NCBI GenBank assembly: GCA_008369845.1 | Contig: MRSU01000035.1 | Coordinates: 1 to 56,309 of the forward strand | Direction of reading: 5' to 3' | Origin: Trichomonas gallinae | Taxonomy: Eukaryota | DNA: 56,309 bases | Shown: positions 24,070-56,246 of the stretch, piece after piece | Position numbering within the stretch: the first letter of the stretch is position 1 | Layout of the letters: each line of letters opens with the position of its first letter | The notes under the pieces: model-generated | The model's database searches: none | What the model saw: only the letters and a program-made list of their open reading frames with translations | Told to the model about the DNA's origin: nothing | Translations under genes and position numbers: made by a program

Positions 24070-24129
24070 TTTTAATGCTGTCACTTTTAGGTTGAGGAAA
24101 TGTCATTCTGACATATATTAATTTTCATG

Positions 24130-29272: not shown

Positions 29273-29764
29273 ATGAGTAACAAAAAGCTTCCAGCTTTTC
29301 CTGCGTCAAAAATTAAGGAAATAATCACACAAGATCCCGATTTAAAGGATATACCAAAGAAAGGAATCGAGATGCTTCGCATTGCCGCAGAAGAATTCGC
29401 AAGATATACTTTTAATAAAATTTCAGAAGAAACTAAGAAGAAAGGACAGACAAAAATGCAATCACAGCACTTTCTTGCTGCTATTAATAATGACCCTGCA
29501 TTGAATGCTATACTTGGACAGTTTATTATCAGTGCTGATGAAGAAACTGAACAACTACAACAGAATGCTGATGAAAATGAAGAAACCAACGAAGTAGAAG
29601 AAATTAATCAAGAAGAAAATGAGAATCCAGATAATGAACAAGAAGAACCTGAAAACGATGGAAATGACATACTCAGTAATGATGAGGAAGAGGATTATCA
29701 CAGTAAGAATCCGTCAATGCATGCAAGTGAGCAAGTTTCAGATCTTGAAAATGATGACCTGTGA
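29273..29764 (+). CDS. histone-fold protein (NC2-alpha/DRAP1/NF-YC-like) with acidic tail
   Basis: FPASKIKEIITQDPD...AAEEF...HFLAAINND matches the H2A-like CBFD_NFYB_HMF fold pattern. Confidence 0.8.
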   Translation: MSNKKLPAFPASKIKEIITQDPDLKDIPKKGIEMLRIAAEEFARYTFNKISEETKKKGQTKMQSQHFLAAINNDPALNAILGQFIISADEETEQLQQNADENEETNEVEEINQEENENPDNEQEEPENDGNDILSNDEEEDYHSKNPSMHASEQVSDLENDDL

Positions 29765-30074
29765 AGAAATTCATTGTTTGCGTAATGCATTTACAATATA
29801 TTGTTCAGATTTAGCCACTAATATCCTCAGTATCAGTTTTTTTGCACAAAAAATTTCCACAATAAGTTTTTTTGTTATTAATTTATTCGAGACCATAATC
29901 AATTGTTATATAATAAAGCTTATATTAATTCTGTCGCTTCCAATTTAAGATTTTTATCGCTAATCAATATTTTATTATCGAAATTCACAAATTTTTCATT
30001 ACAATTTCATTTAAAAATGCAAAACAAACTACAATAAGCTATATACTTGTAATATTCCGAGTTTTATATTTTAT

Positions 30075-30443
30075 TTAAAGATTGGATGCAGAGAGATACT
30101 GAGCAACCTTAGCAACATTAGCAGAAAGAGCGGCTGGGACGAAGGCACCATCTGTGAAACCACCGACGATGAGTGTCTTTGTCTTCTGGAGGACGACAGC
30201 CTTTGTTCCCTTCATAGCGAAGACCATTTCGGCGTTAGCCTGGTTGCAGACGTACTTCTCACCACCATAGAAGAAGCCTGCGAGAGCTGGTGATGGTTCA
30301 GCGAAGTATGTGGTGTATTTCATAAGCTCATCTTGAGTAGCTTTCCATTGGCCCTCAGAAGCGCATAATGCACCCTGCTGTGTGAAAATAGCGCAACCAG
30401 AGGACTGTGTCTTAAGTGTAACAAGCTGGTCGTTCCAAGACAT
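30075..30443 (-). CDS. profilin
   Basis: MSWND.LV, CAIF, GFFYGGEKY, QKTKTLIVG, VAQYL; 122 aa with highly biased codon usage. Confidence 0.92.
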   Translation of the reverse strand: MSWNDQLVTLKTQSSGCAIFTQQGALCASEGQWKATQDELMKYTTYFAEPSPALAGFFYGGEKYVCNQANAEMVFAMKGTKAVVLQKTKTLIVGGFTDGAFVPAALSANVAKVAQYLSASNL

Positions 30444-30559
30444 TCACCAAAAATGAACTGACAGATGAAGTGTTCGAATGTATCAAATTTCTTGTTTTGT
30501 CGGATGTTAATCGCTCATAAATAAGAAATCACTTATTATCAATAAAATCCATTTTTATC

Positions 30560-30830
30560 AAACTTTTTATAAATGCAAAAATTTTCACGTAATTATGCAA
30601 TACATGCTATTTTATATTCTTTTTTCGAAATTTAAATTTAACGTATTTTTTCTCAAAGCTTCAGAATTTTTAAGAAATTATGCAATATATGATATTTCAG
30701 ACATATTTTCGATTTAAAAAAATTAACGTATTTTTATAAAATTTCAAAAATTTCTACGAATTTATAAAATATATATGATTTTAAATAGTTTAAATTTAAA
30801 AAATTAACGTATTTCTTCTAAAAGTTTCAA
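30560..30830. repeat. degenerate ~82-bp repeat upstream of profilin
   Basis: ttaacgtattt recurs at ~30637, ~30723 and ~30804 with similar flanks. Confidence 0.55.
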
Positions 30831-31411
30831 AAAATTGAGAGGAAGATAGTAAAGCTTTCTGGACATCATCGTTGGGATGCATGAACCATAATGATAGAAT
30901 ATATCGCGATAAATCGAATGTTTGATCAAAATCATTGCTCGATCATGTTAAAACCAGTAATATTTATGTTCCTGCAATGAGAATTCATGCATATTCGCTA
31001 CTATAACGTTCCAAATAACAAAACTAGCAAGGCTTCTGAAAGGTTTCTTTTTTGACAGTCCATTCTATATGGGAACAATGCATTGTATTATTATAAGTTT
31101 GATATATATGAAAATATATATTAAACATAAAGACTATACAATGATTGGACAACTTTTCATATATTCTCGAACATATTATCTGCGTTATGAGTGTAATACG
31201 AATGTATTTTGACTTTTATCATCATTTTTGTTATATATCTATAATATTGACGTTAATTCACGAAATTTCAAAATTAATTCTTATATTTGGAACAATGTTG
31301 AAAAGTTTCGATATCCATGTCATTATCGACAGATACGATTTCTTTTCTTCTATCGCATTAAATGTCATTATCGACTGATTTGTAAATTATAAAAAATACA
31401 AACAATATTTA

Positions 31412-34400
31412 TTAATGTAAAAGGATAAGTGACACAGCATCAACAATGGACTGTTTTGGTCCGAGTTTCAATAATATTCGAAGCTTTGATTCGACATTCA
31501 ATAACTCAACAAACTTTTTTTGAATGTTTGTGATAAATGTCTCGAAGTTTAATTCATTGAGCGACTGCGAAGGATCAAATAAGAATGAAAACTCTTTGGC
31601 TACAAATCCAATAATTTTTCTCTTTTCTATTTCGAATGTACCTCTTGCTGAATCAATTTGCTTTTGTATTTCGAATTTCTGGCTCATTTTTTCGCATTCA
31701 TTCCGTGTTTCCAGCATATTCCTTGCTTGTAGTTCCTTTGATCGAAGTTCAGCAACCTCTAGCTCTAGCTTTTGATTAGTCAAAGAGAGCTCATTATTCG
31801 TTTTTGTTAGTTCTGAGTTAATACTATTAATCTTAGCCATTTCATCTGACAGAGACTGATTTTGACTTCTAATTCTTGATATTTCTTCATCATATGATTG
31901 AATTATATTCATATTTTGTTCTTTCAATGAATTCATCTGGAATTGATGCTCCATTTGTGCTCCATTGTTAAATACTTCGAATTTATGAATCATTTCATTA
32001 TTTTTATCTTGAAGTTTTTCGACTTTTTGCAATAATTTAGACTTGAGTTGTCTTAAGTCATGGTTTTCTTGCTTCAATTTGTCATTTCTTTCAGTAAGTA
32101 TCTTAAGTTCAGCTTTAACTCCTGCCAATGTGTTTAAAAGTTGTTGATTTGCATTAACGATTTCGTCAACTTTTGTTTGGGAAACTAATTTGATTTCGTC
32201 GATTTTCGAGGAAAATGCTTTCTCTGAGAAATTCAATCTTCTATCAAGCTCCTCTTTTTCATCTGTTATTTGTGACACTTGGCCTTTGAGTTTTGAATTT
32301 TGTGCATAGAGCTGAGAAATTTGATTATTAAGTTCATCAATTACTTCTGAATTTTTGATAAAAGCTTTTTCGTGTCTTGATTCTTTCTTTTTCTGGTCTT
32401 TGAGATTATTCTTTATTGCATTCTGTAATCTATGTGATTCGCTAGTTATCGATTGAAGATTTGCATAAGCTTCGTCATAAGTATTGACATTTAACAAATC
32501 GAGTAATTTTTGATATGCATTTTGAATTGTTAAGAGTTCCTCATTAAGATTATGATTGTCCTGATCCATTTTATTAAACTGCTCTATTAAAATCTGTTTA
32601 TCTCCTGGAGAATTCAAATCAAACTCTCCAAATTTCGAAACATTAATTTTATTGGCTTTTTCAGTTATTCTTGATGACTGTGAATTATACCATTTTGCAA
32701 TTATTGAGAAAAGCTGAGTGAGTTTTGTTGGAGTATTAAGTGTGCAATTTCCTAATTTATCAGCAAGTAATTTTCTTAGTTCTATTGGAAACTCTTCGAC
32801 TGTACTAATTGCTAAATCAATCAAATCAGATCTTATTTCTGGATTTTGTTTCATTTCATTTCTTATCACTCGAACTGAAGCTTGATTCATTTCATTGAAA
32901 GAATTAAATTGATTAGAATATATAGGTTCAAAATTCTTCATTCCATATGCAGAGGATTGATTTTGTATGATTTCATTAATCCTGGCTTCATTTGAAAAAT
33001 GATTTTTCATTATTTGGTTGAAGGAACTTTCATTTGAATATGTTTCACATGTTGAGAAATTATTCTGCTTTATATCATTAATTGTAGCTTCATTTTTGGG
33101 CTGTTCATTAATGAAATTTTGATTTGGATACATTGGATATATAAATGATTGATTTGATTTTGATTCATATGCAGAAGAAATTTGGTTTCTTTTTATTTCA
33201 TTTGTCGATTGATTTCTTTTTAGCTCTGTGATTGAATTTTGCAGGTTTTGCAATTGTGCAGCTAAAAGTTTGTTATCATTTGTCAAATCGTTTATTTTAA
33301 TTTTGTTTTGTTCGTTTTCGAATTTTGTTGAATTTAGCTGTTTCTCAAGATCTTCTATTCTGTTATTTTTAATTTTCAATATCTGCAAGTCAGCATTGAC
33401 GACAATTTGCTTACTTTCTTTTTCATTTTCTTTAATTTGTACTGTACTTACTTGTTTTCTTGTTTCAGCTACAAATTTTTCTGTTTTCATATCATTTAAC
33501 TCTTGAATTTGCTGCTGCACCATCAAATTTAATGATTTTTCTTTTTCTACTGCCGCTTTGAGCTGCTTTTCAATATATTTACGTGATGCAATTTCGTTGT
33601 CAAGTTTATCTCTTAAATCAGAGTTAGCTGACATTAATTCTCTTTTTTCGCCCAAAAACTGGGATTCTAATTCATTGATTTTAACTTTATACTGCATTAT
33701 TTCTCTTGATTGGTCAATGAATGTTGATTCTCTGTTTTTCTTAAGTTTTTCATTTTGATTAGATAAATTTTCAACTGTATTTTGCAATTCAGTGCATTTA
33801 TCAGATAAATTGCGTAATTTAATTTCATATGATTCTTTCAATGATTGTATTTCGCTCTCATGTGCAGACTTTAATACCATTATTCTAGATTTCAAATGAT
33901 CGAACTTATTTTTCCATTTAAGTGCTTGGAATAACTGTGTATCTGTGATATCGCATCCATCTTGAAATAGTTTTGGTTGTTTATTAGAATTAAAAGCATT
34001 ATTTAATTTATCAACGCTTTCAATAGAACAATTAAAGTATTTCGACGCATTTTGTAGTATATTGGAAAAATCATTATTAAACTTTGCAATTTGCTCACTC
34101 TGTTTAAGGATTTGATTTTGTAATTTCGAATTTATATCTGCAATTTGTTGTTTTGGTACTGAATTAATATTTTTATCTTGAATTGAATCACTTTCTGATA
34201 AAGAAAGTAGATCTATATTTAGATTTTGATTCTGATCTTCAATTTTTTGCAGAGCAATTCTTAATCTACGATGTAAATCATCATTTAGTGCCTCAGAAAG
34301 TCGCAGTTTGTTAGCCAAATTCATATTTTCGTGAAAAATTTGATCAATTTGTTGTGATACTGGAATTGCTTGATCTAATTGAACCTTCAACTTATTGATT

Positions 34401-34474
34401 TCTTCTTTTAGTATCGAATTCTCGTCCTTCAGTCGCTCAAAATCATAATCATAACTTTTCATTTCGTCTCCCAT
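31412..34474 (-). CDS. long coiled-coil protein, paralogue of 42592-45726
   Basis: Heptad-rich ORF; first ATG at 34474. N- and C-terminal segments are similar to those of the 42592-45726 protein. Confidence 0.85.
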   Translation of the reverse strand: MGDEMKSYDYDFERLKDENSILKEEINKLKVQLDQAIPVSQQIDQIFHENMNLANKLRLSEALNDDLHRRLRIALQKIEDQNQNLNIDLLSLSESDSIQDKNINSVPKQQIADINSKLQNQILKQSEQIAKFNNDFSNILQNASKYFNCSIESVDKLNNAFNSNKQPKLFQDGCDITDTQLFQALKWKNKFDHLKSRIMVLKSAHESEIQSLKESYEIKLRNLSDKCTELQNTVENLSNQNEKLKKNRESTFIDQSREIMQYKVKINELESQFLGEKRELMSANSDLRDKLDNEIASRKYIEKQLKAAVEKEKSLNLMVQQQIQELNDMKTEKFVAETRKQVSTVQIKENEKESKQIVVNADLQILKIKNNRIEDLEKQLNSTKFENEQNKIKINDLTNDNKLLAAQLQNLQNSITELKRNQSTNEIKRNQISSAYESKSNQSFIYPMYPNQNFINEQPKNEATINDIKQNNFSTCETYSNESSFNQIMKNHFSNEARINEIIQNQSSAYGMKNFEPIYSNQFNSFNEMNQASVRVIRNEMKQNPEIRSDLIDLAISTVEEFPIELRKLLADKLGNCTLNTPTKLTQLFSIIAKWYNSQSSRITEKANKINVSKFGEFDLNSPGDKQILIEQFNKMDQDNHNLNEELLTIQNAYQKLLDLLNVNTYDEAYANLQSITSESHRLQNAIKNNLKDQKKKESRHEKAFIKNSEVIDELNNQISQLYAQNSKLKGQVSQITDEKEELDRRLNFSEKAFSSKIDEIKLVSQTKVDEIVNANQQLLNTLAGVKAELKILTERNDKLKQENHDLRQLKSKLLQKVEKLQDKNNEMIHKFEVFNNGAQMEHQFQMNSLKEQNMNIIQSYDEEISRIRSQNQSLSDEMAKINSINSELTKTNNELSLTNQKLELEVAELRSKELQARNMLETRNECEKMSQKFEIQKQIDSARGTFEIEKRKIIGFVAKEFSFLFDPSQSLNELNFETFITNIQKKFVELLNVESKLRILLKLGPKQSIVDAVSLILLH

Positions 34475-34928
34475 AATTTTGGCGCCAAAAATAAACGGTC
34501 CCAAACTATCCACTAAATTATTTTGGCAGACCCTAAATATTGTATAACCTTATTTTTCAAATATAAAATAATCAAGATTAGTCCATGCTCTTTGCGTAGG
34601 ATTAATGAGCATAATAGTAGTTTCACTTTTTGCTAATATATTTGCTGTCAAAAACGTCTAGAAGAGGCGATTTTTTTAAAAAAAATCTGTTTTCTAAAAT
34701 TTTGACAAAACAAATTGCTGTCTGACATGTAAATTATAGAAAATAATACTGAATGTGACAATTTGCCATGTAAAATTATTCAACCTTTTCAATTTTAATT
34801 CCCTTGTCACCTAAACTATAAACTCAAATATTGTTTATTTTAATATCATCAATGATACGCAGAAAATTTCACCTCAACTATAAACTCAATGAAATACAAA
34901 AATGAAATTTTAAATTTTAGACAGACAA

Positions 34929-35468
34929 TTAATGTTTAATCTTCCAATCTAGTTCATCTCTCGAAACCGGTCTTGGAAGTGGTATCATGAATTTCTTTTC
35001 GGGATCTCGAGACATTGATTTTCTCATATCATAGCCATCTTCATTCAATGTTTCATAATAATTTATGATTGTTCTATATAGAGTGTAACCCATGTTCTTA
35101 TACATAGTTTGAGCAGATGTATTTGTCGGTCTAACGAATAAATCAACAAATTGTGCTTTGTAGTATTCATCGGAGGCCTTTTCTAAGAGGCTCATCAAAT
35201 GAGTAGCCAATCCTGTTCTTCTGTTGTCTTCAGCAATTGTAACTGCTGTAACGTGGCCTTTTTCTTCTCCTGGAGTGTTTTGATCAGCTTGACCAATAAT
35301 ATAGCCAACAATATTTCCATCATTGTTGCGTGTAGTCCATGCAAGCTCAGGCCAAAGAATCGTATAATACATATAGAATGGAACAGAGTATGTTTCTGTC
35401 CATGGATCAATGTTTACGCGGCTGTAATGCCAAATATCATCAAGACTCCAACGATTAACGCTGACCAT
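34929..35468 (-). CDS. NAA20: NatB catalytic subunit (N-alpha-acetyltransferase 20)
   Basis: VNIDPWTETY..PFYMYY..WP, HVTAVTIA, FVDLFVRPTN, EDGYDMRK. Confidence 0.93.
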   Translation of the reverse strand: MVSVNRWSLDDIWHYSRVNIDPWTETYSVPFYMYYTILWPELAWTTRNNDGNIVGYIIGQADQNTPGEEKGHVTAVTIAEDNRRTGLATHLMSLLEKASDEYYKAQFVDLFVRPTNTSAQTMYKNMGYTLYRTIINYYETLNEDGYDMRKSMSRDPEKKFMIPLPRPVSRDELDWKIKH

Positions 35469-35570
35469 ACTATTCTTCTTTTAAATAAATGATTTTGTCA
35501 TGTAAAAATTATTTTGTCGTGTAAACTAATTTCTGTTATATTTTTTTCTGATTGAGAAAAAGCCTTGATT

Positions 35571-35745
35571 ATAATGAGAAAAGTGAAACCATATACGCAA
35601 ACATTACATTGATTTTAACATAAATCAAAATCAAATGAAAATTAAAAATATCGCAGAATTATCCATTTATATAATGAGAAAAGTGAAACTATATAAGCAA
35701 ATGTTGCATTGATACTCAGCATTTTAAAATAAATCAAAATCAGAT
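35571..35745. repeat. 100-bp-period direct duplication
   Basis: ataatgagaaaagtgaaac.atata.gcaaa at 35571 and 35671, each followed by taaatcaaaatca. Confidence 0.75.
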
Positions 35746-35775
35746 AATAATAATACTATATTCTTTATTTGAACA

Positions 35776-37119
35776 TTACACAGTATACATAACTTTGTAA
35801 TCTGGATCTTTCTCCCTTTCTTTGACATCTTTTTGTTTTCTACATGATAAAACAACAACTGTAACAATAATAGCGATGCCAAGGATGGCAAATACTGATC
35901 CAGTGACTGCAAAAATAATTTTCTTCCTCGATTGACCACTTTCTTGATCATCATCTGGTTTTGCAGTTGGAGATGTAATAATACGAGTTGGTTCACGAGT
36001 CGGTTCACGTGTTGGATCATGTGTTGGTTCAGATGGATCAGGACTTGGTGATGGAAATGCACACTGTGGAACAACTGTTACTTTATTTTTATAAAATGGA
36101 GAATTAATTGTACTGTAAACATCTAATTTTGAGTCAAATACTGACGATATTGAGCCATCAATTATAGGATAAACAGTTGTGCATAATAATATATTCGCTG
36201 TTTTTGCAATCTTCGTGAAGACACCCTCAGATAAGGATACTGATGATTTGAATGTGATGTACTTCAAATTTGTGCATTTAGTAAAGGCTTCTGTGTGGAT
36301 AAAATTAATACTGGGTGGAAAAACAACTGATAGCAATGAATTACATGCTGAAAATGCAGTGCCAAGAATATCAACGAGGTTATTTCCAAATGTTGCATGC
36401 TTCAAATTGTTTGAATCACGAAATGCATTTGGATAAATATGTTTTAGATTAGCTGGGAACTTAAACTCGACAAGATTATCGCAGTCGGCAAATGCGTAGT
36501 CACGAATCTGTGTTATAGTACTCGGAAGATCGATTTTTGATAATTTTGAACAATACATAAAGCACCTCATTGGAATGTATGTGTTAACTGCAGGAACGAC
36601 AAAGTTATCTAAACTAGTGCATGATTCGAAACAGCTGTTGTTGAGATAACATTTTTGTGAAAGATTGATTGTTTTTAGTGAACTGCAGGCTTCAAATGCT
36701 CTAAACTGAAGAGTAATGGGAACCTCTGAAGAAGCTGATGCGAAATTAACTGCAGAAAGAGATGTACAATCTCTAAATGCATCAAAGCCAATTTCAACTA
36801 AAGTTGGAGGTAGATTAATTGTAGTGAGCTTTTCGCATTCTCTAAAACAATTGTCTGGGATAGTATCAATATTTTCAAGAATAGTTGCTGATAAAAGTGC
36901 CGGATATTCTCTGAAACAAGCTGGAGGTATTGTAATTTTTCCTGAAACTTTGAGACTTGTCATTGATTTTGAGCTATCTAATCTTTCTAAAACTTCAATA
37001 TCTATTGTTGGACTATATCGCAGCGATGTGATTGTCATTGCGTAGTTTTCGAATACATATCGAATGTTGCCTTGATCAATTGTCTCTGAAATCGACTTTG
37101 CTAAAAAAAGAGAAAACAT
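35776..37119 (-). CDS. BspA-like (TpLRR/LRR_5) surface protein
   Basis: Repeats of type LP..L..I...AF..C..L, Pro/Thr linker (PTREPTREPT), TM helix, cytosolic tail with YKVM (YxxPhi). First ATG at 37119. Confidence 0.93.
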   Translation of the reverse strand: MFSLFLAKSISETIDQGNIRYVFENYAMTITSLRYSPTIDIEVLERLDSSKSMTSLKVSGKITIPPACFREYPALLSATILENIDTIPDNCFRECEKLTTINLPPTLVEIGFDAFRDCTSLSAVNFASASSEVPITLQFRAFEACSSLKTINLSQKCYLNNSCFESCTSLDNFVVPAVNTYIPMRCFMYCSKLSKIDLPSTITQIRDYAFADCDNLVEFKFPANLKHIYPNAFRDSNNLKHATFGNNLVDILGTAFSACNSLLSVVFPPSINFIHTEAFTKCTNLKYITFKSSVSLSEGVFTKIAKTANILLCTTVYPIIDGSISSVFDSKLDVYSTINSPFYKNKVTVVPQCAFPSPSPDPSEPTHDPTREPTREPTRIITSPTAKPDDDQESGQSRKKIIFAVTGSVFAILGIAIIVTVVVLSCRKQKDVKEREKDPDYKVMYTV

Positions 37120-37599
37120 TGAGATTTGGTAAAATTGTAAAATGAAAAACAAAACAAAATTCCATAATAATTACATGTAACAATGTAAACTTTAAATTTA
37201 AAATAGACTTAATAATTTTGTCATGTAAAGACTTTACACTTTTTTGGCCATGAATAAATTTTTCAATTATTGAGTATAATTAATCTAAATATAAATTATT
37301 TCACTTTTTCTCATATAACATTAATGAAATATTGAGTTTTTATTTTTGAAAAATTTATTTTCATCGACAATAGTTATTTTCATTCGAAAAATTGCTTATA
37401 TATTCGATGGTTATTGTATTCTTCATATTAAAAATGGTTAAATACAAACATTTTATCAAGATTTTCATGTAAAGATTAAAATTTTGTTGTATTTAGCTGT
37501 AAAACACTCCGCATATTCTAAAAATTAAGTCAAATCTTCAAAAAAATTGAACAACAAAAATAACGATAACGATAAAAATAAAGAATTCTAAAAAAAATT

Positions 37600-40500
37600 A
37601 TGCAACAACCAACTCTCGAAGAATTACTGCATGATAACCTTATTGATGTTGAGCAGTTCAAGAAGACGCCTGAGATGGTTAAGACTTTGGAGTGTTTTCA
37701 CTATGATTTGCCCGTCCATCCTGATTTTTCACCATTTCCGGGCCTTGTAGAACTCAGGATCATTGAACAAGATGTGGTTGACTTAGAATTCCTCAAAGAC
37801 TGCAAGAATTTACAAACATTGATAATTTTTCACACGCCTTTGAAGGATATATCAGGATTGAAATATTCTCCATATATAAAGCAGCTGATTCTTGAAGGAA
37901 ATAAGATTATGCAGTTTCCAGACATCACAGATTTCGAGGATATTGTTGAATTAAGCGTTGCAGAAAATCCAATTAAAGAAATAAAAGAATTTCCACGCAA
38001 CGAATCATTACAAATCCTCAATCTTTCGAATATTGGACTTTCATACTTATCAGAAACAATCGTTAATTTCCCAAATATCTATAAATTACAAATCGCAAAT
38101 AATAATCTTCACGATTATTCGATATTTAGGATTCTCGCTCAATTACCGAAGCTTACAGAATTGTATTTATATGACCCAATTTACGATGAAAATCCTATTT
38201 GCTCTTTTCCAAATTATGATATTCTTCCTCTTGCTTTATTACCAAATTTGACCATCTTGGATACATATAAAGTCAATGATAAGATGAAACAACAGTCCCA
38301 AAACAGAAGAAAACACGCAGAACTTTATTATTTATTCGAAGCATCATCAAATATGTCATTAATCTACGATCAGCTCGAAGAATTCCACAGCAAAGCCAAC
38401 GAGTGCCTCAATTCTATAACTTACGAGAATCAAATTGATCGAGAATTATTTTCCGATGTTTACAATATTATAAAAGATTTCGACCAGATCGGCATAGCTC
38501 TGCAGGAGTTCTACAGGCAGACGTCAACAACGACATTCATGACCGGCGGATGTATCACGATCGAGCAAATCGACACAGAAAACGAACAATCGAGGAACAT
38601 TGAAGATCTGATCCTCAAGAAGTGCACAACCAAAGAGAATTTCACGCTGTACGGAGTCTGGAAAGTCACTCATACGGCTGCGTTGTCTGAAATTGAAAAA
38701 GACGAGCTCGTTGAGCCTAGTAAATACGAAATTGTTGTCCCTGAGTCACTCAATGATGTAATTAAGTGGCTTTCAGACTGGCATCACGTTCAGCCAAATT
38801 TAGAAGTTCAGTCTTCAATAACAATCAGCTCGCAGACATCAGTAATATTCTGTGATCCACGAGGAAAGAGCGGTGTGCTGATTCCTGAATACATAGCTTT
38901 CTTCTGTGAATCTTTTGATTATGCATCTAACGAAATAAACAGAATCTGCGCACAAATCAAAGACTTAAAAGTTCCACAAGAGTCAATTATCAACGATGAG
39001 TCATTGTTTATCCTCCTAAAGCCTTTTGAATTGAAAGATACTCTTGTTAACATTACTCTAACGAATTGCGGCGTTAAATCACTTTCACAGTTCTCAGGTG
39101 TAACGAATCTGAAGTTTCTAGCCCTTCCTTTCAACGAAATAACAACTGTAAGAGATCTTCCTGAATTTCCGGCTCTTGACGTTTTAGATATCTCATATAA
39201 CAAGGTTTCTACCATTCCCGACCTTCTCCCCGACAGTGACGCAGCTGCTGACTCAGTCAAACTCTTCATTTTCTTTGGAAATCCGATTTGCAATCCAAGA
39301 ACCATTGCTTTATCTATGAATTTCTTCAGGAATTCAGCATCTATTATCAACGAGCCGAGGATTCCACTCTATGTTCCCCTCGAATCTCCAAGCGACGTCT
39401 TTTTAACATCTGTTTTTCCACCTGGAATTCAGTTAGAGTCCATTTCATCATTGGATTTCAGGAACCAGTGCTTGGTTACACTCGCTCCGCTTTCTCAGCT
39501 TCCTGCTCTTAAGATTTTGTATGCATCAGATAATATGTTGGAATCTATCGACTTTACATCAAAGACACTGACATTTGCGGACTTATCTTTGAATAATATA
39601 CAGAATTTCCCAACAGAACAGAATTTTCCAGCAATTGAAACATTATTGTTGAATGGCAACCAAATTTCCAAACTTTCTAGGATAGAAAACCTTCTCGCTT
39701 TGTTTATTTCAGATAATCAAGTCTCAGATCTAATCACAGAAGAATTATTCCCAAATCTTGTTTCTTTGTGTTGCAATGGTAACCCATTCCTCAAGAATTA
39801 CAACGACAACAGAATAATTTTCGGTTTATCCAAGCTGAAAATGCTGAATGGAACAAGAATCACACCAGCTATTGCTCAAAAAGCGAAAAACATGTACACA
39901 GGAGTCTTATTTGCTGAAACCAATTCGCAGCTGTTCAAGACAGGAACAACAACAATGTCGTTGGCTGAGCGTGGCTTGAAAGATGTTAATGCGCTGAAAA
40001 GTGATACGTTAATCGACCTAGATTTGAGCAAGAACAATATATCTACCATTACATGGGAGAGCACAAGTGTTCCACGACTTCAAAAACTCAATCTTTCGAA
40101 TAATTCGATGTTGTTATTCGATTTCGTTCAGTTTATTCCTAGACTAAGATATCTCGATCTATCATTCAACAAGATTACTGATGATATCTTGACTTGTTTG
40201 CAAAACACACCGTTCAATTCTTTGCAAACTTTAATTATCGCAAATAACAACATCAAAGGCATAGATGTCTTTTCAACTAAGACATTCCCCAACCTAGAAA
40301 CACTCAGCTTGTCCCACAACTACATAAACAGGATCGGACCAGGCGCATTTTCTCATCCTAAGCTTTCCATCATCGATTTATCATATAACTCGCTTAAGAA
40401 ACTCGATAACATCGCTTCCCAGCAAATCACAGCACTGGATTTGTCGCACAACAGGATTCCAACTGTCGATGAAGTCGAAAAACTTCGTCCGTGTGCGCAA

Positions 40501-40776
40501 TTGCTTAAATTCGCGTTCAGCGACAACAATCTCACGCAGAGGATCTCGCCGCGCATCAGGATTCTGTCAATACTCCGCTCTGTGAAAGAGATGGATGGGA
40601 AACCTGTCACTGAGTCAGACTTGAACCAGGTGAGAATCATAACTGAGCAGATGACCGGCGGACCGATTGTTTCTGCACGCTCACCGAAAGGACCAGCACC
40701 ATCCGCCACAAACCAGGTCTTGCCGCCCCTCCAGGGTGGAATGAAGAAGAAGACATTGCGTTTTCCAAGACAATAA
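37600..40776 (+). CDS. leucine-rich repeat protein, LRRC9-like
   Basis: SDS22-type LRR blocks with LYLYDPIYDENPICSFPNY...LPNLTILD cap and a central non-LRR region ending LIPEYI. Confidence 0.8.
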   Translation: MQQPTLEELLHDNLIDVEQFKKTPEMVKTLECFHYDLPVHPDFSPFPGLVELRIIEQDVVDLEFLKDCKNLQTLIIFHTPLKDISGLKYSPYIKQLILEGNKIMQFPDITDFEDIVELSVAENPIKEIKEFPRNESLQILNLSNIGLSYLSETIVNFPNIYKLQIANNNLHDYSIFRILAQLPKLTELYLYDPIYDENPICSFPNYDILPLALLPNLTILDTYKVNDKMKQQSQNRRKHAELYYLFEASSNMSLIYDQLEEFHSKANECLNSITYENQIDRELFSDVYNIIKDFDQIGIALQEFYRQTSTTTFMTGGCITIEQIDTENEQSRNIEDLILKKCTTKENFTLYGVWKVTHTAALSEIEKDELVEPSKYEIVVPESLNDVIKWLSDWHHVQPNLEVQSSITISSQTSVIFCDPRGKSGVLIPEYIAFFCESFDYASNEINRICAQIKDLKVPQESIINDESLFILLKPFELKDTLVNITLTNCGVKSLSQFSGVTNLKFLALPFNEITTVRDLPEFPALDVLDISYNKVSTIPDLLPDSDAAADSVKLFIFFGNPICNPRTIALSMNFFRNSASIINEPRIPLYVPLESPSDVFLTSVFPPGIQLESISSLDFRNQCLVTLAPLSQLPALKILYASDNMLESIDFTSKTLTFADLSLNNIQNFPTEQNFPAIETLLLNGNQISKLSRIENLLALFISDNQVSDLITEELFPNLVSLCCNGNPFLKNYNDNRIIFGLSKLKMLNGTRITPAIAQKAKNMYTGVLFAETNSQLFKTGTTTMSLAERGLKDVNALKSDTLIDLDLSKNNISTITWESTSVPRLQKLNLSNNSMLLFDFVQFIPRLRYLDLSFNKITDDILTCLQNTPFNSLQTLIIANNNIKGIDVFSTKTFPNLETLSLSHNYINRIGPGAFSHPKLSIIDLSYNSLKKLDNIASQQITALDLSHNRIPTVDEVEKLRPCAQLLKFAFSDNNLTQRISPRIRILSILRSVKEMDGKPVTESDLNQVRIITEQMTGGPIVSARSPKGPAPSATNQVLPPLQGGMKKKTLRFPRQ

Positions 40777-41529
40777 TTTTGTTTTCATATATATATATAT
40801 AAAATGTTTGTTTTATTACAACTATTTTTCATTTCTCTTTAATACACATAACAACAATCAAATAATAATTGACTTTTTTTTTAGAAGACAGTAAACAAAA
40901 AACTGACAACCAATAGTAATATTTTCTGTCATGTAAACAAAAAGAATATCGTGTAAATATTTTAATCATAATTTCTTAATTCTTTATTAATTTCAAAACT
41001 CGCCTATTTGTCAATATTTTGCATGAAGTGTTGTGTACCGAAATCGGTCACGAAAAAGTATATATTCTTACATGTCAGATTTTGAGCTGTAGATCGGGGG
41101 AAGAATTTAAAAAAATATCATTATTGGGTATGTTCAAGACATGACACAAACATTAGTTATGTCGCATCAAAACCTTAATAGCCCACAAAATAGAAAAGAT
41201 GCAGCCGCAAAAGAACAATAATAAACATAGAGTAGAATTTGTAAATTACAGCGAGCAAAAATTAAATATCACAATAATAAACATAGAGTAGAATTTGTAA
41301 TAGACTGCTATCATTCAGATTTGTAATAAAACGAATCTAAGGCAAATTAATTCTTGAATATCAATACATACTCCATCAAAGCGAAATTCTAAGGCAAATT
41401 AATTCTTTGAATAGACCAAATTTAATATAGGCTCACGTAAAGAACATAAATAGCAGTATTTATGAACATCTAATGGTACAAAATACAGTGAATCTTTGTA
41501 ATTAAATATCATGATTTTTGTCATGTAAA

Positions 41530-42250
41530 ATGGCAATTTCGTTACTCTTCACTCATCTGGTTTTGGTTTATTACAATTATGGAAAGAGTCAATACGTGGA
41601 CTGGATTAAACATAATAATTAATTTCTATTCACAATGTATTTTAATGTTTATAAGTGGAAAATGCGATCCTGTAAATCTTCCTTTGGAAACATTTCGAAT
41701 GGGTGGAAAATACTATTTTGTCAATCAGATTTTAATCTCAGTATGGTTTTATATGACAATTGATAATATTAAGGATGATATTTGTAATTATTCCTAATTC
41801 TGTTAACTTTTATGTAAAACTATACTGAGTTCATGATCAGATTGACAAAATCTAATCAATAATTTATAGGCTTTGTATTTTAAATCAACTGTAGTATTTT
41901 AATCATTATCGGGGACTATCTTTGATATTATTCATTTTGCAATATCTTCTTTAATAAATTTTGAAGCGATTCTCGAATTTAATGGATAAAAATCGAATTT
42001 GGTCGGAAAGATCCTAATACAATTGAAATTCAGACATTTGTACCTAACTTATTCGCAGATTCATGTCCATATTGGTCCAAAGTAACAACCGATGTATTTT
42101 TCCTATTTCCACTAAATGGATACCAAATGTAGTATCTGAAGAATAAATTATGGCATTAATTGACACTATGAACTGAAATCATGGTTATGCCCCATCATGT
42201 ATGGAATATCCATGATGGATATACTCCATATGATTCATGTAGAACCGTGA
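41530..42250 (+). pseudogene. possible decayed protein-coding gene
   Basis: ATG at ~41530 gives MAISLLFTHLVLVYYNYGKSQYVDWIK*, followed by short coding-like fragments in other frames (DPVNLPLETFRMGGKYYF; DPNTIEIQTFVPNLFADSCPYWSKV). Confidence 0.3.
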
Positions 42251-42591
42251 TTTCAGCCAAAATCCATTTTTAAATTTGACGTGTAAAGTGTCAAATTTGA
42301 CGCCTATCAGGAGGTCATGAACTCACAAATATGTGCATGTATATGATCATGTGGCACATATCTCATATGATGTTGAAATCCATCATATGATCACAGACAA
42401 GATTTATTTGAATTTTTTTCTAAAATCAGAAGATAATCTTGTCGTAGGTTCTCAAGACATATTCGCTGAAAGACTATGGTTATTTTATCATTGTTGTAGC
42501 CTATATTATTTAATTACACGATCAACTTTAGCAATTCATAAGATATCTTAATAAATTTCTGTTGTATTAATAAAAAAGCAACAAAAAATAT

Positions 42592-45500
42592 TTAATTGGA
42601 TGTTAAAACAAGCTGTGCAACAGCATCATCTGTAGTTTGTCTTCCAGATGCACCAACCATGCGTCTGATTGCGCTGTCTGAACGTTGAAGACGTGAGATT
42701 TCTTCCTTCGCTTTGCAGATTAGTGACCTGAACGAGTGCTCGTCTATTGCTTCTGATGCGTTGAAGAACTGACGAAGTTCATCTGCTGCGAATGCTAAAA
42801 TGCGGCGCTTCTCCGCTTCCCACTTCATCCTGTGCTCGCTGAGCCTTGCCGTGAACTGAGACTCGGCTGTCATCTGTGCGCCTCTCAATGCTGACTCTGC
42901 AATCTTAGCTTCACGTTCTGCTTCTTCTTCCTTGCATGCAAGCTCCTTTTCCAGTCTAGATATTTCGCGACGGAGCTGTGCGATTTCGTTCTTCGATTCT
43001 TTGAGCTGTTTCTCGCGTTTTGTGCTTTGCTGAGTCAAAGCTGCAACGTCCTGTCTGAATTTGTCGCACTGGGAAGTTATCTCGCGGATTGCACGCTCGT
43101 GCGATTCTTGCGCCTGCCTCTTCTCTATCGCGCTGACTTCAGATGACCTACGCGCAGAAATTTCCGCCTGCTGCTTCAGGGCTGCAAGATCGCGTTCTTT
43201 CTCTGCGAGAGAAGCTTTCTGTGCGTGAATAGTTCTGCATTGTTTCTGGATCTTTGCGTCTGCTTCTGCGATTGTCGAGTTCGCCTTCTGCAGCTCAGCA
43301 GTGAGATGCTCGATTGTGAGTCCAAGCTCGTTCTTTATGGCATTAACAGCTTGAACTGCAGCACGCTTTGATTCTTCGTCGTTCGCTCTAAACTGCTTTG
43401 CTGCGTTTTCAGCTCTTTCTTCTAGGTCAGAAAGCGCGCGCTTTGACGCTGCGTTCTCTGACTTGAGCTTCCTGTTTGCCACAGCCAACTCTTCGCACTG
43501 CTTGTTCATCGTCTCCAGAGTAGATTTCGTCATTGAAAAGTCAGATGACAGTTTTTCGTTTTCAGCTTTGAGCAATGATATTTGGTCATTAAGATCAGTA
43601 TTCATCTCTTTGAGCTTCTTAATCTTGCGGTCCATGACGGCGAGCTTCTCGTCTACTTGAGCGCGTACATTGTTGAGTTTGTTGCTGATGTCAGTGCTGT
43701 CTGTTATTCCGAAAGTTGCAGCGACTCCATCAATATTCGATTGAAGGATTTCTTTCGCTCTCGTCAACTCAGTGATTTGAGCTCTGAGGCCGTTAACACG
43801 CGAGATAAGAGATGCTGAGATGTCCGGGTATTGTATGAACTCATCTATGTTGACAGCTTTGTCGTTCAATGCAATGGAGAGTGAGATGACGAAATCTGAC
43901 AAAAGTGTTAACATCTTCTGACTTTGTGCTGACGATTCTTCGGCTGTGTGCCTCATCTGGTCGATCTGCTTAGTGTAGTATGAAGCAATAGCCTTGAAGC
44001 ACTGCTGCAGTTTGGAAACAGCGTGCAAAGCATTGTTGGAAGCGATTTTTGCAATGCGCTGTGAAAGCGAAGAATCAGCATCAGTCATCTGCCAAGCTGA
44101 CGGCGGGATAATGTCTTCTTCTGTCAATGGAACAGCCTGGCTCGCACGTTGGCGTGCATCTGCTAAGTCGTACTGGAGCTTGGAGATTTGCTCGAGAAGT
44201 GTCTTCTTCTCGTTCGCTGCTTTTTCTGTCTCGTTTCGAGCTTCTTTTTCTGACTGAATAAGTCTTTCCTTTTCAAGCTGAATTTCGAATATTTTCTTTT
44301 CGAGGCATTTGTTGGTGTCTTCTAGCTGTACGATCAAAGCTTGCTGTTTTTTCTCTTCTCTGCGGCGCTTTTTCTCTTCTTTCGCATCGCATTTTGCATC
44401 TCTTGAATGTAAAGCTTCTCTGATCGCCTCGATCTCTTGGAGTGTCTGGTTATGGACGATCTTCAAGGATTGAAGCTCATTGTTCTCTGATTCCTTGGAA
44501 ACTTTTGATGAAATTATTTCTCTCTCTGCTTTGTCAAGAGAACGTTGTAATTCTTCATTCTGTCTTGTAAGAGTGCTGATTCTTGATGTGAGTTCAGCGA
44601 TTTTTGAATTCAATTGATCGCATAAAAATGAATCATCGCAATTCAAGTTTTCTTGCTTTACAACAGGTGGAGCTTGCTTGATAACTTGGATTGATTCTGC
44701 TTTGACTTTAAGATTGTTCTTTTCTTCCTTTAATTTTGCATTTTCTGTTTTAAGTTGCAAATTTTCATCCCTCTGCTTATTTAACTCATCCCTTGTCTTG
44801 TTGTTCTCATCTTTAAGCATCTGAAGCCTTGATTCCAAAACTTGAATCGAATGATTCTTTTCAGCAGAAGCCAAATCATTTTCTTCGCTGATTTGTGAAA
44901 TTTTGGCCTGTAAGTTGCTCATTTCCTTCTGGTGATGATATGTGAGCGAATCTATTTGTTTATCTTTTTGATTTAATATTTCGCAAATTTCTTTTGTTTT
45001 TTGATTAGCAATTCTCAGTTTTGCCTTAACAGTCTTGATTTTGTTTTCGAGGAACTGTATTTGTTGAGTATATGCCGCTTGTGTAAAATCAATTTTTGTA
45101 TTTTCAGAAAATGTTGAAGATTTCTTTGGTTCCGGAGGGTATTCATTCTCTAATATGTCGCATAATTCGTCAAATGATGAAATCTGTCGATTAAAGTAAT
45201 GCTGTGAATGAATAACGGCTTTTTCTATTTTTCCAACTAATGTTTTTTGCATAATTTCGTCTTGATCCTTTTGATTCTGGAGCTTCTGGTTCTCGGCATA
45301 GAGTTTTTCTATCTGTTGCTGATAAGATTTCTTGACTTTCGATAATTCTTTTTGCATTGAATTGTAATCGGACTGTCTTTGCAGCGCATTTCGCTGCTGT
45401 TCGTCCTGTAGTTGCTTAGTAGCCTCATTTTGGGCGCGAATACTGATTTCAAGTCGATTTGCAAAATCTTCTTTCTTTGTTTTTTCTTCAATTAACTGGT

Positions 45501-50314: not shown

Positions 50315-50618
50315 AAGTAAAATTATGAGTAACTAAAATTAACATAATAATATAAATTGAGCTGATAAAAAAAGAATTTATGATTGAAAAAAAAAACATC
50401 GGATTCAAATTATTTGGCCTTAAGACACTAAAACATTATTTTGTTTTGCGTGTCAAAGAATTAGAATGTAAAGTGTCGGATTGGTAGATTTTGGGATGAT
50501 AATTCTGACATTTTACATTTTGACACTTTACCATGACATATTAGTTGTCAAAAAATAATGTAAATAATTTACATGTCAAAATTTTGGAAAAAAAAGTTCG
50601 TTTTTCATTTTAGGAAGA

Positions 50619-51337
50619 ATGAGTAAAAAAATAAAGCCAACGCTTCATTCAGCAGCACGCGAAGGAAACGTTGCTGATTTAGAGTTAATCTTCCAAATAC
50701 CAGAAATAAATCCAAATGAAGTTCATTTTCTTTCTCAAACAGTTCATTATTATTCGTATGATATTCATTTTTTAACTTATAACTTAATTCAACATACCAT
50801 CATGGTATTCATCATTTGTATATTGGACCGCCTTACATTACGCAGCTTTAGAAGGACGTAGAGATACTGTTAATTTCTTAATTAAGAAAGGTGCTGATAT
50901 CAATAAGCTTACTGAAGGCATTCATAATACATTTTCATTGTTCATTATATATCTTACTTAATTCATCATAATTTAATGTAGAGAGTATTCATCTTTTTAA
51001 TATCTAGTTCATTATTTGCTTTTCAAGTACAGTTTTATTTCTAACAAACAGAGTGGACCAGTTTTTCATGTTTTTATGTAATTCATCATTTATTTTTAGT
51101 GTACAAGTACAATTTATGGGAGTAACACCTCTTCATATTGCTACGCGTAAGGGATATAATGCAATTGTTGCTGATCTTCTTCGAGCCGGCGCAAATCCAG
51201 ATGTTCTAGATTTATTAGGACAAAAAGCTATTGTATATGCTAATCCAAAGACAAAAGCTGTCTTCGACTTCGAACTTAAACAGAACACTCCTGAGGAAGA
51301 GGAGAAGGACGAAGAAGAAGAGCAAGATGATGAATAA
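50619..51337 (+). CDS. ankyrin-repeat protein split into three coding blocks (~50619-50723, ~50821-50916, ~51116-51337)
   Basis: Block 1 TLHSAAREGNVADLELIFQIPEINPNEV; block 2 YWTALHYAALEGRRDTVNFLIKKGADINKLTE; block 3 MGVTPLHIATRKGYNAIVADLLRAGANPD...EQDDE*. Inr tcattt at 50605; stop lies in TAAA. Confidence 0.85.
51027..51051 (+). other. 25-nt type-B-like trichomonad spliceosomal intron
   Basis: gtacagttttatttctaacaaacag: GTAC donor and fused TCTAAC-A-AACAG branch/acceptor, 25 nt. Confidence 0.7.
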
Positions 51338-51552: not shown

Positions 51553-52548
51553 TCAAAATATTCGACAGCCTTCATCTAATGCACTAAGTGTCAAACTATA
51601 GTCATCTTCTTCCTCTGCTTCATCTTCATCCTCAGCATTACCTGTTCCAAACAGATATTCTTCGAATGCGTTCCAGCAGATTTCGTCATTTTTAGTATTA
51701 TACTTATCACCTGCCTCTTTAAGTTGACGTTCAATCCTATCATAGTCAGGTGTATCTTCGTATTTCAATTCTAGAAGATAAATATAGATATTTTTCAATT
51801 GCGAAGGCATGCTTAAGAGAATTTCGGATTGTGTAACTCTCTGTCTGAGCTTGACGACATCACTTCTCTGGCCACCACATGACCAAGGGAGTTTGCCTTG
51901 AACAAACTCAACAATCATGTAAAACCAAGAAATTAAGTCATCGCATCGTCCAAGATCGCAACCTTTAAGTGCATTGTCGGATGCGTACATAGTAGTGCCT
52001 ACAAAACCATTTCCATTGTTAACAGCGAATGGTTTTCCAGTGTTCGGATCGATATGTTTTTTTGCAAAGCCGAAATCTATCAAAACAATAGGTGGAGTGC
52101 TTTTAATTCGACGATATACGAAGTTACTCGGTTTCACATCGCGATGAATGTAGCCTCTCATGTGCAATTTCTTTAATAGTCTAAAAGTTTCATGCGCAAG
52201 AGGGACAACAAACATCATAGGAAACTTTCTTCCAGGTAGAAGACGACGAAGTTGTGACAAAGATTTGCCGTAGAGGTCCATGACAAACCATTTGAATTGT
52301 TCTGTTTCCCCTGTTGCTCTAACTTTCGGATACTCGGGTGAATTTAATCTGCGAAGGATTTTTACTTCGTGTTGAAGTGTTGGGCGCTTTTTCTGTTGAA
52401 TTTCTGCTTTGAACGCAAATAATTTGTTCGATTTTGTATGTGTTACGGTGTATACATCTCCGTATCCACCGTGTCCAATCTGTTTTCCGATAATGAAATT
52501 CCCCACAGTTGTCCCCTCTTGGAGAACAACGCGAGGAGGCTTTTCCAT
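51553..52548 (-). CDS. CK1-group (TTBK-like) protein kinase
   Basis: IGHGGYGDVY, AFKAE, HRDVKPSNF, LIDFGFA, GTTMYAS, LGRCDDLISW. Start placed at ATG 52548 after Inr ttcacttt. Confidence 0.95.
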   Translation of the reverse strand: MEKPPRVVLQEGTTVGNFIIGKQIGHGGYGDVYTVTHTKSNKLFAFKAEIQQKKRPTLQHEVKILRRLNSPEYPKVRATGETEQFKWFVMDLYGKSLSQLRRLLPGRKFPMMFVVPLAHETFRLLKKLHMRGYIHRDVKPSNFVYRRIKSTPPIVLIDFGFAKKHIDPNTGKPFAVNNGNGFVGTTMYASDNALKGCDLGRCDDLISWFYMIVEFVQGKLPWSCGGQRSDVVKLRQRVTQSEILLSMPSQLKNIYIYLLELKYEDTPDYDRIERQLKEAGDKYNTKNDEICWNAFEEYLFGTGNAEDEDEAEEEDDYSLTLSALDEGCRIF

Positions 52549-55722: not shown

Positions 55723-55955
55723 AGAGTTGTCACTTTTTGAAGAAATTAATTTCTGAATTTTCCCGCATTAATAATACGTATTATTAATTTTAAAATATGT
55801 CATGTAATTTTAAATTGTATCATGTAAACGTCAAAACAATATAAACAATATAGGCAATGAAACTTCGATGCTACCGGTAAATTTGACTCAATCTAATATA
55901 TAATAATATAACAGGGCCTCCACCCTGACCATATTCTTTGTGCCATCAATAATTT

Positions 55956-56246
55956 TTGATAGATAATGAATATGACTACGAATATTTCACCGACGACGAA
56001 GCTCTTCATGCGAGTAAAGTCAATATAGACGGTAAGTCAATGATAAGAAGAAGAAAATCAGAAGAAAAGAATGCAGACAATGAATATGACTACGAATATT
56101 TCACAGTTGATGAAGCAATCCACAAAACACACATAGTTAAAGACGGAAATCCACTTAATAGATACAGAAATGGCGAAAAAGATTCAGACGACGAGTACGA
56201 ATATAACTATTCTACTGATGATGAATACAATCAATGTTGTGCATAA
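55956..56246 (+). repeat. threefold acidic/Tyr peptide repeat (NEYDYEYFTxDE) in an ATG-less reading frame; probable gene fragment
   Basis: aatgaatatgactacgaatatttcac at ~55965 and ~56079; third degenerate copy at ~56190. Confidence 0.5.

What the first reader, a model, noticed from the sequence alone, without database searches (positions are those of the whole stretch)
50721..51110. Both ankyrin inserts are arrays of ~20-nt units starting with RTTCAT
Seen in sequence: RTTCA(T) starts at 50721, 50742, 50763, 50787 and 50807 (spacings 21, 21, 24, 20). It also starts at 50920, 50940, 50961, 50987 and 51007, followed by GTACAG at 51027 (spacings 20, 21, 26, 20, 20), and again at 51081 with GTACAA at 51101. 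The rest of each unit is variable and pyrimidine/AT-rich, so motif and spacing are conserved but sequence is not; this is not a recent tandem duplication. The motif resembles both a short-intron donor (GTWYA) and the Inr (TCAY). Inference: these could be phased protein/RNP binding sites or stacked mini-intron-like units that mark the segment for removal or bypass.
Basis: partly seen in the sequence, partly recalled or inferred. Interest (0 to 1): 0.75.

Follow-up and report, generated by a model that had tools for sequence, protein, structure and literature searches.

The report
AG-less 17-base introns between single codons
A Trichomonas ankyrin gene is cut into exons as short as one codon by about a dozen 17-18-base spacers that lack the usual intron end; a likely-mRNA contig from a close relative has them all removed and a distant relative has the same layout, so these parasites likely have an undescribed way of splicing.

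Summary
The periodic RTTCA starts are real (0 and 1 of 5000 shuffles match). They mark the 5' ends of stacked introns in a Trichomonas ankyrin gene (orthologue of T. vaginalis TVAG_221630, annotated as a 73-aa fragment). One contig of a close relative's likely-RNA run skips both inserts but keeps the last 3-9 bases of each unit. The best parse gives 12 introns of 17-18 nt (start GT or AT, no AG anywhere, no fixed branch A, no hairpin) plus one textbook 25-nt GT-AG intron. All 13 are phase 0, with 3-9-nt exons, restoring a 161-aa ORF. A distant flagellate orthologue (68% identity) has the same layout. The window's rule applied to its first insert recovers all five residues exactly (0 of 200 shuffles reach the score). 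Known trichomonad introns are GT-AG, at least 23 nt, at most two per gene, and ten literature searches found no such class. Removal at RNA level about 0.9. Mechanism inferred: likely the spliceosome reads the 5' site and joins at a fixed distance (about 0.5); a nuclease plus RtcB ligase is the main rival. Caveats: one contig, not the same strain, no raw reads.

The parts
50605..50609 (+). Inr-like TCAYW element 14 nt upstream of the start codon (inferred promoter element)
   Evidence: the orthologue L001 has one 9 nt before its ATG. Inr consensus recalled.
50619..50720 (+). Exon 1 (102 nt, 34 codons, first ankyrin-like repeat)
   Evidence: contig X1 record 3 covers 50633-50720; also 102 nt in L001
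50721..50738 (+). Intron 1, 18 nt, GT..AA, phase 0 (can slide 2 nt left)
50739..50741 (+). Micro-exon, 3 nt (Thr)
   Evidence: kept in X1 (table 5c); Thr in L001
50742..50759 (+). Intron 2, 18 nt, GT..AT
   Evidence: the RNA letters alone also allow introns 2+3 as one 36-nt gap
50760..50762 (+). Micro-exon, 3 nt (Asp)
50763..50780 (+). Intron 3, 18 nt, AT..AT
50781..50786 (+). Micro-exon, 6 nt (Asn-Leu; split by a further intron in L001)
50787..50803 (+). Intron 4, 17 nt, AT..AT, no sliding possible
50804..50806 (+). Micro-exon, 3 nt (Gly)
50807..50823 (+). Intron 5, 17 nt, AT..AT
50824..50919 (+). Exon 6 (96 nt, second ankyrin repeat)
   Evidence: Pfam Ank E 3e-8; 96 nt in L001 too
50920..50936 (+). 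Intron 6, 17 nt, AT..TC (can slide 3 nt right)
50937..50939 (+). Micro-exon, 3 nt (Ile)
   Evidence: place ambiguous from the RNA letters alone
50940..50957 (+). Intron 7, 18 nt, GT..AC
   Evidence: alternative boundaries exist
50958..50960 (+). Micro-exon, 3 nt (Leu)
50961..50977 (+). Intron 8, 17 nt, AT..AT
50978..50986 (+). Micro-exon, 9 nt (Val-Glu-Ser; one synonymous difference in X1)
   Evidence: table 5c read
50987..51003 (+). Intron 9, 17 nt, AT..AT
51004..51006 (+). Micro-exon, 3 nt (Leu)
51007..51023 (+). Intron 10, 17 nt, GT..TT, no sliding possible
51024..51026 (+). Micro-exon, 3 nt (Gln)
51027..51051 (+). Intron 11: canonical 25-nt type B spliceosomal intron (GT-AG, fused branch/acceptor motif)
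   Evidence: only type B match in the window; fits the consensus in PMC13548475; absent from X1; GT-AG intron at the same position in L001
51052..51060 (+). Micro-exon, 9 nt (Ser-Gly-Pro)
51061..51077 (+).
51078..51080 (+). Micro-exon, 3 nt (Val)
51081..51097 (+). Intron 13, 17 nt, AT..TT
51098..51337 (+). Last exon (240 nt: third ankyrin repeat, acidic tail, stop); its last 73 aa match T. vaginalis TVAG_221630 as annotated at 99%

Best explanation
The units are tiny introns, each followed by a one-to-three-codon exon, and they are likely removed from the pre-mRNA one by one by the spliceosome, which would recognise only the type-B-like 5' end and join the exons a fixed 17-19 bases downstream without an AG or a branch adenosine. 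Shown: the genomic layout; a contig lacking the spacers and keeping the micro-exons; the restored 161-aa ankyrin ORF; the same layout in a distant relative; no AG, no fixed A and no hairpin in the spacers. Inferred: (1) that the contig is mRNA and removal happens on RNA (about 0.9); (2) that the spliceosome does it (about 0.65), because the 5' ends follow the local canonical donor in both species and a true GT-AG intron sits inside the array at the same position in both; (3) that the join is set by distance from the 5' site and falls where the branch A of a 25-nt type B intron lies (+18), so the chemistry is likely not the standard lariat pathway (about 0.5 overall). Speculative function: 9 of 13 single retentions truncate the protein, so full-length output would be a steep read-out of this activity.
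For: Contig joints with 14 and 30 retained letters equal to the unit ends; 44 letters, one synonymous difference. Shuffled inserts allow such a parse in 0 of 300 (gaps 15-26 nt) and 1 or 0 of 300 (gaps 10-200 nt). Without motif priors 21 and 90 parses exist; only 1 and 2 have every gap starting RT; at most one gap in any parse ends in AG; iterated or nested canonical-type excisions cannot reach the message. Out-of-sample: the window's rule on L001 gives 5 of 5 identical residues in insert 1 (27 of 27 points; 0 of 200 shuffles reach it, max 8) and 56 points in insert 2 (0 of 200; max 28). 9 (machine parse) to 11 (hand parse) of 13 intron positions are shared. 5' ends: 12 of 12 window introns fit RTWYWD; two L001 short introns equal the first 17 nt of L001's own canonical intron at 16 of 17. 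Branch A at +18 follows from the consensus and the 7-nt rule. Five unnamed relatives' proteins align to the spliced, not the unspliced, frame further upstream in four cases (to residue 73-74 instead of 83).
Against: The RNA evidence is one assembled contig of one run whose RNA status is a guess by the tool, from a relative and not this strain (most contigs 90-99% alike); no raw reads, no intermediates, no DNA of that organism. The RNA letters alone demand only 4 + 7 gaps, not 5 + 8. Only 3 of 17 L001 short introns fit RTWYWD, and 7 of 12 window introns start AT, which published trichomonad introns never do. A join at the branch position with no 3' tail has no precedent that I know and is hard to fit to standard spliceosome geometry (recalled). 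L001 insert 2 is only partly fixed: machine and hand parses agree on 7 of 12 introns exactly and 10 of 12 starts. The phase-0 bias (13 of 13) is not explained by this model.
Confidence: 0.52

Rival explanations
1. A protein endonuclease cuts at the RT motif and 17-19 nt downstream and an RtcB-type ligase joins the exons (tRNA- or Ire1-like chemistry), possibly on the ribosome, which would explain why nearly every junction falls between codons.
For: No AG and no branch A; strict length rule; 13 of 13 phase 0 in the window and 6 of 6 in L001 insert 1; T. vaginalis has four RtcB orthologues (PMC8718801, passage).
Against: No hairpins: the inserts fold no better than shuffles, whereas Ire1 and tRNA introns need structure (recalled). 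The 5' ends copy the spliceosomal donor in both species. One L001 intron parses best in phase 2.
Confidence: 0.2
2. Ordinary two-step lariat splicing of very short introns, with a non-A or wandering branch nucleotide near +10 and a relaxed 3' dinucleotide, i.e. a Stentor-like geometry with Fritillaria-like tolerance.
For: 15-16-nt introns are spliced as 10-11-nt lariats in Stentor (PMC9505925, passages); the U2 spliceosome likely removes non-canonical introns in Fritillaria (as cited in PMC12621601). 9 of 12 window introns have A at -2, as in YAG.
Against: No position from -8 to -5 has A in more than 4 of 12 window or 4 of 17 L001 introns; one L001 intron has no A at all. Known trichomonad introns keep a strict fused branch/acceptor motif.
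Confidence: 0.17
3. No RNA processing: the X1 organism has an intron-less DNA copy, and the interrupted gene is either dead or read by ribosome hopping.
For: X1 is not this strain and its RNA label is a guess. Unnamed relatives read through part of insert 2 without a break, so positions do come and go.
Against: Micro-exon residues are conserved with synonymous changes between the window and L001, so the interrupted gene is under selection. The same contig lacks the textbook GT-AG intron at its exact borders. T. vaginalis G3 and three Logan records give only the 73-aa tail, and no full-length 161-aa relative was found. An intron-less copy with exactly these letters would most simply come from a processed message.
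Confidence: 0.08
4. One reading: phased protein-binding sites or internal Inr starts, with the inserts dropped as blocks.
For: TCAT resembles the trichomonad Inr (recalled); 10 of 12 starts contain it.
Against: Unit ends are kept as codons; TCAY occurs once in L001's inserts although the layout is kept.
Confidence: 0.03

Closest known systems
Trichomonas type B spliceosomal introns (23-28 nt; GTWYWD N7 TCTAACAAACAG; PMC6260720, PMC12316389, PMC13548475)
   Same: 5' motif, U-rich body, near-fixed length; intron 11 is a true member; the short introns look like type B introns that stop at the branch position.
   Different: 17-18 nt; no branch motif; no AG; 7 of 12 start AT; 13 in one gene, against at most two per gene reported.
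Tiny spliceosomal introns of Stentor (15-16 nt) and Mikrocytos (16-17 nt)
   Same: Length range and AU-richness.
   Different: Stentor introns are mostly GU-AG with a fixed branch A at +10/+11; Mikrocytos introns have highly conserved sequences. Here no AG, no fixed A, and exons of one codon in series.
Non-canonical introns of Fritillaria, diplonemids and euglenids
   Same: Splice sites other than GT-AG; removal machinery debated.
   Different: Diplonemid non-canonical introns have medians of 37-91 nt and paired ends (PMC12621601); these are 17-19 nt, unstructured, confined to one gene in the parts examined, and conserved in position.
Ire1-spliced HAC1/XBP1/bZIP60 introns and tRNA introns
   Same: Very short, no GT-AG rule, removal opens a reading frame.
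   Different: No hairpins at the junctions; a dozen in series rather than one (features of these systems recalled).
U12-type (AT-AC) introns
   Same: GT or AT tolerated at the 5' end, non-AG 3' ends (recalled).
   Different: No RTATCC 5' motif, no branch motif, far shorter.
3-nt micro-exons of plants and animals
   Same: Single-codon exons exist (search listings).
   Different: Those are flanked by ordinary introns (recalled); here they stand in runs between AG-less 17-mers.

Membership tests
Trichomonas type B intron (12 short introns) | 5' GTWYWD | tested here: inconclusive
   5 of 12 match with G, 7 of 12 with A at +1
Trichomonas type B intron (12 short introns) | Fused branch/acceptor motif ending in AG | tested here: not met
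   0 of 12 contain AG or the branch motif
Trichomonas type B intron (12 short introns) | Length 23-28 nt | tested here: not met
   8 x 17 nt, 4 x 18 nt; published range
Trichomonas type B intron (intron 11, 51027-51051) | GTWYWD N7 TCTAACAAACAG, 25 nt, absent from the message | tested here: met
U2 spliceosomal intron (general) | Branch adenosine at a fixed distance from the 3' end | tested here: not met
   position-wise composition
U2 spliceosomal intron (general) | Lariat intermediate; dependence on snRNPs and Prp8 | not testable with these tools
   needs lariat sequencing and knock-downs
Nested or recursive canonical introns (stwintron-like) | Message reachable by successive GT/GC/CT/AT-AG or AT/GT-AC excisions | tested here: not met
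   exhaustive search of 145 and 32180 states
U12-type intron | 5' RTATCC motif and branch motif (recalled) | tested here: not met
   intron sequences
Ire1- or TSEN-type intron | Stem-loops or tRNA-like fold at the cut sites (recalled) | tested here: not met
   intron +/-10 nt fold 0 to -4.4 kcal/mol; inserts no more stable than shuffles; no Rfam match above chance
Ire1- or TSEN-type intron | Dependence on an endonuclease and RtcB or Trl1 | not testable with these tools
   no genome held; needs knock-down
Reverse-transcriptase template-switch artefact | Direct repeats at the two junctions | tested here: not met
   sliding 0-3 nt per side; 5 of 13 introns cannot slide at all
Ankyrin-repeat protein | Pfam Ank above the gathering score | tested here: met
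   exon 6 and last exon; L001 likewise; the joined protein was not scanned

The most novel reading that the evidence does not exclude
Parabasalids have a previously unknown intron class removed by branchless, ruler-type splicing: a GT/AT 5' site plus a fixed 17-19-nt distance, no AG and no branch A, able to stitch single-codon exons in series. It has been kept in one ankyrin gene over deep time, perhaps as a sensor or timer, and more cases are hidden among 'split' genes and '5' UTR introns' because all published searches were motif-guided.
Probability: 0.55. Interest if true: 0.95.

Novelty: categorically new. Interest (0 to 1): 0.9.

Why it matters
The 3' AG and the branch adenosine are treated as near-universal needs of nuclear pre-mRNA splicing, and trichomonads are thought to have few introns with unusually strict motifs, at most two per gene. 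A conserved gene with 13-18 introns, most of them 17 nt, AG-less and separated by single codons, would overturn both views for this lineage. It would give a compact natural substrate, in a culturable and transfectable organism, for asking what the minimal signals and chemistry of intron removal are. It also shows that TVAG_221630 is mis-annotated (73 aa instead of 161) and that motif-guided pipelines cannot see this class. The rating 'categorically new' rests on failing a defining feature of every intron class tested; if ordinary lariat chemistry is found it drops to a new variant.

Tried and rejected
No genome is held for the window, so no genome-wide scan was possible. No listed holder is on record as RNA; runs X2 and X3 laid nothing, which says nothing on expression. 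Control: 52 X1 contigs on window 22600-42599 show no joints; 9 of 30 bins had no cover, which is not evidence. A weak joint at 51942-52057 (side 24 nt, low identity) was set aside as a kinase paralogue. Protein search for longer relatives returned only generic ankyrins; the middle exon found no candidate; the search of cluster representatives never ran, so the orthologue's range is open. Atlas gave generic ankyrin clusters. Prokaryote genomes gave one 19-aa chance hit, L002, dropped; viral contigs none. More DNA of L001's record was not available. A spliced alignment of L001 with no splice prior gave no stable parse, so the window-derived rule was used. A looser unit rule gave chains of 4-5 elsewhere in the window; the one inspected, near 13990, is AT-rich non-coding DNA, so that rule is not specific. 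Rfam: one chance hit, E 0.91. Earlier findings of the scan: nothing. Rejected: whole-insert removal, nested canonical splicing, template switching, Inr arrays. The joined 161-aa protein was not searched or folded, so its family and structure remain open.

Full report
Observation. Chains of five RTTCA at 19-27-nt spacing occur only in these two inserts of the 56-kb window, and dinucleotide shuffles of the inserts reach that in 0 of 5000 and 1 of 5000 trials. The inserts interrupt a + strand ORF that starts at 50619 and whose second and third blocks carry Pfam ankyrin repeats. The last 73 residues are 99% identical to T. vaginalis G3 TVAG_221630, annotated as a 73-aa protein, so the window is T. 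vaginalis or a close relative. No genome is held.

What a transcript shows. One public run, X1, holds the stretch (its RNA status is the tool's guess). A single 464-nt contig bridges both inserts with 88 or more letters on each side of each joint. It does not simply skip them: 14 letters stand in place of insert 1 and 30 in place of insert 2. These letters are the last 3, 6 or 9 bases of each unit, in order, with one synonymous difference in 44 (one search read). The contig also lacks 51027-51051, the window's only match to the type B intron pattern, exactly at its GT and AG borders; this is the best sign that it is mRNA. Contig depths span four orders of magnitude with a profilin gene on top, which fits RNA, but the tool warns that contig depth is a poor measure. 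X1 is a relative, not this strain: of 52 contigs on a 20-kb control stretch 2 were 99% or more alike, 21 were 95-99%, 22 were 90-95% and 7 less; none showed a joint. The three listed differences in the last exon are all at third codon positions.

The parse. Thirteen introns: eight of 17 nt, four of 18 nt and the 25-nt canonical one; internal micro-exons of 3,3,6,3 and 3,3,9,3,3,9,3 nt; all phase 0; a 161-aa ORF results. The short introns start GT (5) or AT (7), are 55% T, end AT (7), TT (2), AA, TC or AC, and none contains AG. How firm is this? With no motif prior, gaps of 10 nt or more and exons of 3 nt or more, 21 parses fit insert 1 and 90 fit insert 2. The fewest gaps are 4 and 7, so the RNA letters alone do not prove introns 2/3 and 6/7/8 as drawn. 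Only 1 and 2 parses have every gap starting RT, and the parse given is the only one of those with all short gaps at 17-18 nt. No parse has more than one gap ending AG, and no series of nested canonical-type excisions reaches the message. Shuffled inserts admit a parse in 0 of 300 trials with gaps of 15-26 nt, and in 1 and 0 of 300 with gaps of 10-200 nt. Junction repeats are 0-3 nt, so template switching is unlikely.

Conservation. The one true orthologue found in JGI metagenomes, L001 (68% identity over the last exon, on a 150-kb contig next to a CFAP91 gene, so a flagellate; parabasalid by inference), has inserts at the same two sites, after exons of the same 102 and 96 nt. I applied the window's rule (RT start, 17-19 nt, or GT-AG of 20-26 nt) as a prediction. 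Insert 1 resolved into six phase-0 introns and five single-codon exons encoding the same five residues, 27 of 27 points, against a maximum of 8 in 200 shuffles. Insert 2 resolved into twelve introns, 56 points against a maximum of 28, with a 23-nt GT-AG intron at the position of the window's canonical one. Insert 2 is less certain: machine and hand parses agree on 7 of 12 introns exactly and 10 of 12 starts. Shared positions are 9 of 13 by the machine parse and 11 of 13 by the hand parse. In L001 16 of 17 short introns start GT, 10 end TT, none contains AG, and one has no adenosine (hand parse). Micro-exon codons differ synonymously at Thr and Gly in insert 1, which points to selection on the joined protein. 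Of five unnamed relatives' proteins compared (about 70% identity), four align to the spliced frame from residue 73-74, nine or ten residues further than to the unspliced frame. They read through the 3' part of insert 2 without a break, so positions vary between lineages; their DNA could not be fetched.

How it most likely works. The 5' end and the length are constrained; the 3' end is not. Exon length varies from 3 to 240 nt while intron length stays 17-19, so the join is measured from the 5' site (inference). Three things point to the spliceosome: all 12 window starts fit the type B donor with G or A at +1; two L001 introns equal the first 17 nt of L001's own canonical intron at 16 of 17; and a true type B intron is embedded in the array in both species. 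In a 25-nt type B intron the branch A is base 18 (from the consensus in PMC13548475 and the 7-nt rule in PMC6260720), which is where the next exon begins in a 17-nt intron. I therefore favour a spliceosome that docks the 5' site as usual and ligates at the branch position, without a tailed lariat (0.52). Against it: only 3 of 17 L001 introns fit the T. vaginalis donor pattern, AT starts are not known in trichomonad introns, the chemistry has no precedent that I recall, and the phase-0 bias is unexplained. Rivals: nuclease plus RtcB, perhaps ribosome-coupled (0.2; four RtcB genes reported; no hairpins); ordinary lariats with a non-A branch (0.17); no RNA processing (0.08); Inr or binding-site arrays (0.03). 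Nine of 13 single retentions truncate the protein to 53-96 aa and four add six residues in frame. A role as a steep sensor of splicing capacity is a guess.

What is known. PMC12316389 (abstract, passages, sections 8, 9, 15; supplement 3 whole; supplement 2 part 1 of 2 plus a search of the whole file): all 63 T. vaginalis introns are GT-AG, the shortest is 23 nt, at most two per gene in a trichomonad; junctions lacking motifs were filtered out; TVAG_221630 is not listed. PMC13548475 (abstract, passages, sections 11, 21): motif-guided search, 48 introns; multi-intron candidates failed PCR; no mention of this gene in the main text; supplements not read. PMC6260720, PMC6679479, PMC10245619, PMC9505925, PMC12621601, PMC8718801 and bioRxiv 10.64898/2026.08.31.748405: passages only; the preprint's supplements are closed and its list of read-through genes could bear on this locus. 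Henriet 2019 is known only through its citation in PMC12621601. Features of Ire1, tRNA and U12 introns and of the Inr are recalled. Ten full-text searches showed no report of this gene or of AG-less 17-nt introns or single-codon exon arrays in parabasalids; the library lacks most subscription journals.

Verdict. The feature is real, conserved and almost certainly processed out of the message (about 0.9). The 12 short introns fail a defining feature of every intron class tested, so I rate them categorically new, with the machinery inferred and open. Interest 0.9. The main weakness is that RNA support is one assembled contig from a relative; existing T. vaginalis long reads could settle it at once.

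Noticed in passing
PMC12316389 supplement 2; compare window 50720: Of 9 T. stableri ankyrin genes with an intron, 8 have it after a first exon of 96-117 nt and 7 of these are 25-nt type B (5 phase 0, 2 called 5' UTR). That is close to the site of insert 1 here. The '5' UTR' cases may hide further AG-less introns downstream.
   Followed up: no
window 50920-51115: The micro-exons of insert 2 encode part of a 17-18-residue insertion between ankyrin repeats 2 and 3 (51 residues between the LH motifs against 34 for repeats 1-2), conserved in length in L001.
   Followed up: partly
P0038-P0040, P0044, P0045: Unnamed relatives read through the 3' half of insert 2 in one frame but begin with F/L/I-rich stretches typical of translated U-rich DNA, suggesting partial intron loss or partly processed RNA.
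   Followed up: partly
L001 1930-1946: One short intron of the orthologue parses best in phase 2, two bases from the position of window intron 13: possible intron sliding.
   Followed up: partly
window about 13590-14050, - strand: AT-rich non-coding stretch with about four degenerate copies of a GGGTCATTT-type motif; possibly a mobile-element remnant.
   Followed up: no
window 55953-56246, + strand: Short ORF with three copies of an acidic, tyrosine-rich peptide repeat near the window's end.
   Followed up: no
window 36066-36070: X1 differs by a compensating one-base insertion and deletion inside the 464-aa ORF on the - strand.
   Followed up: no
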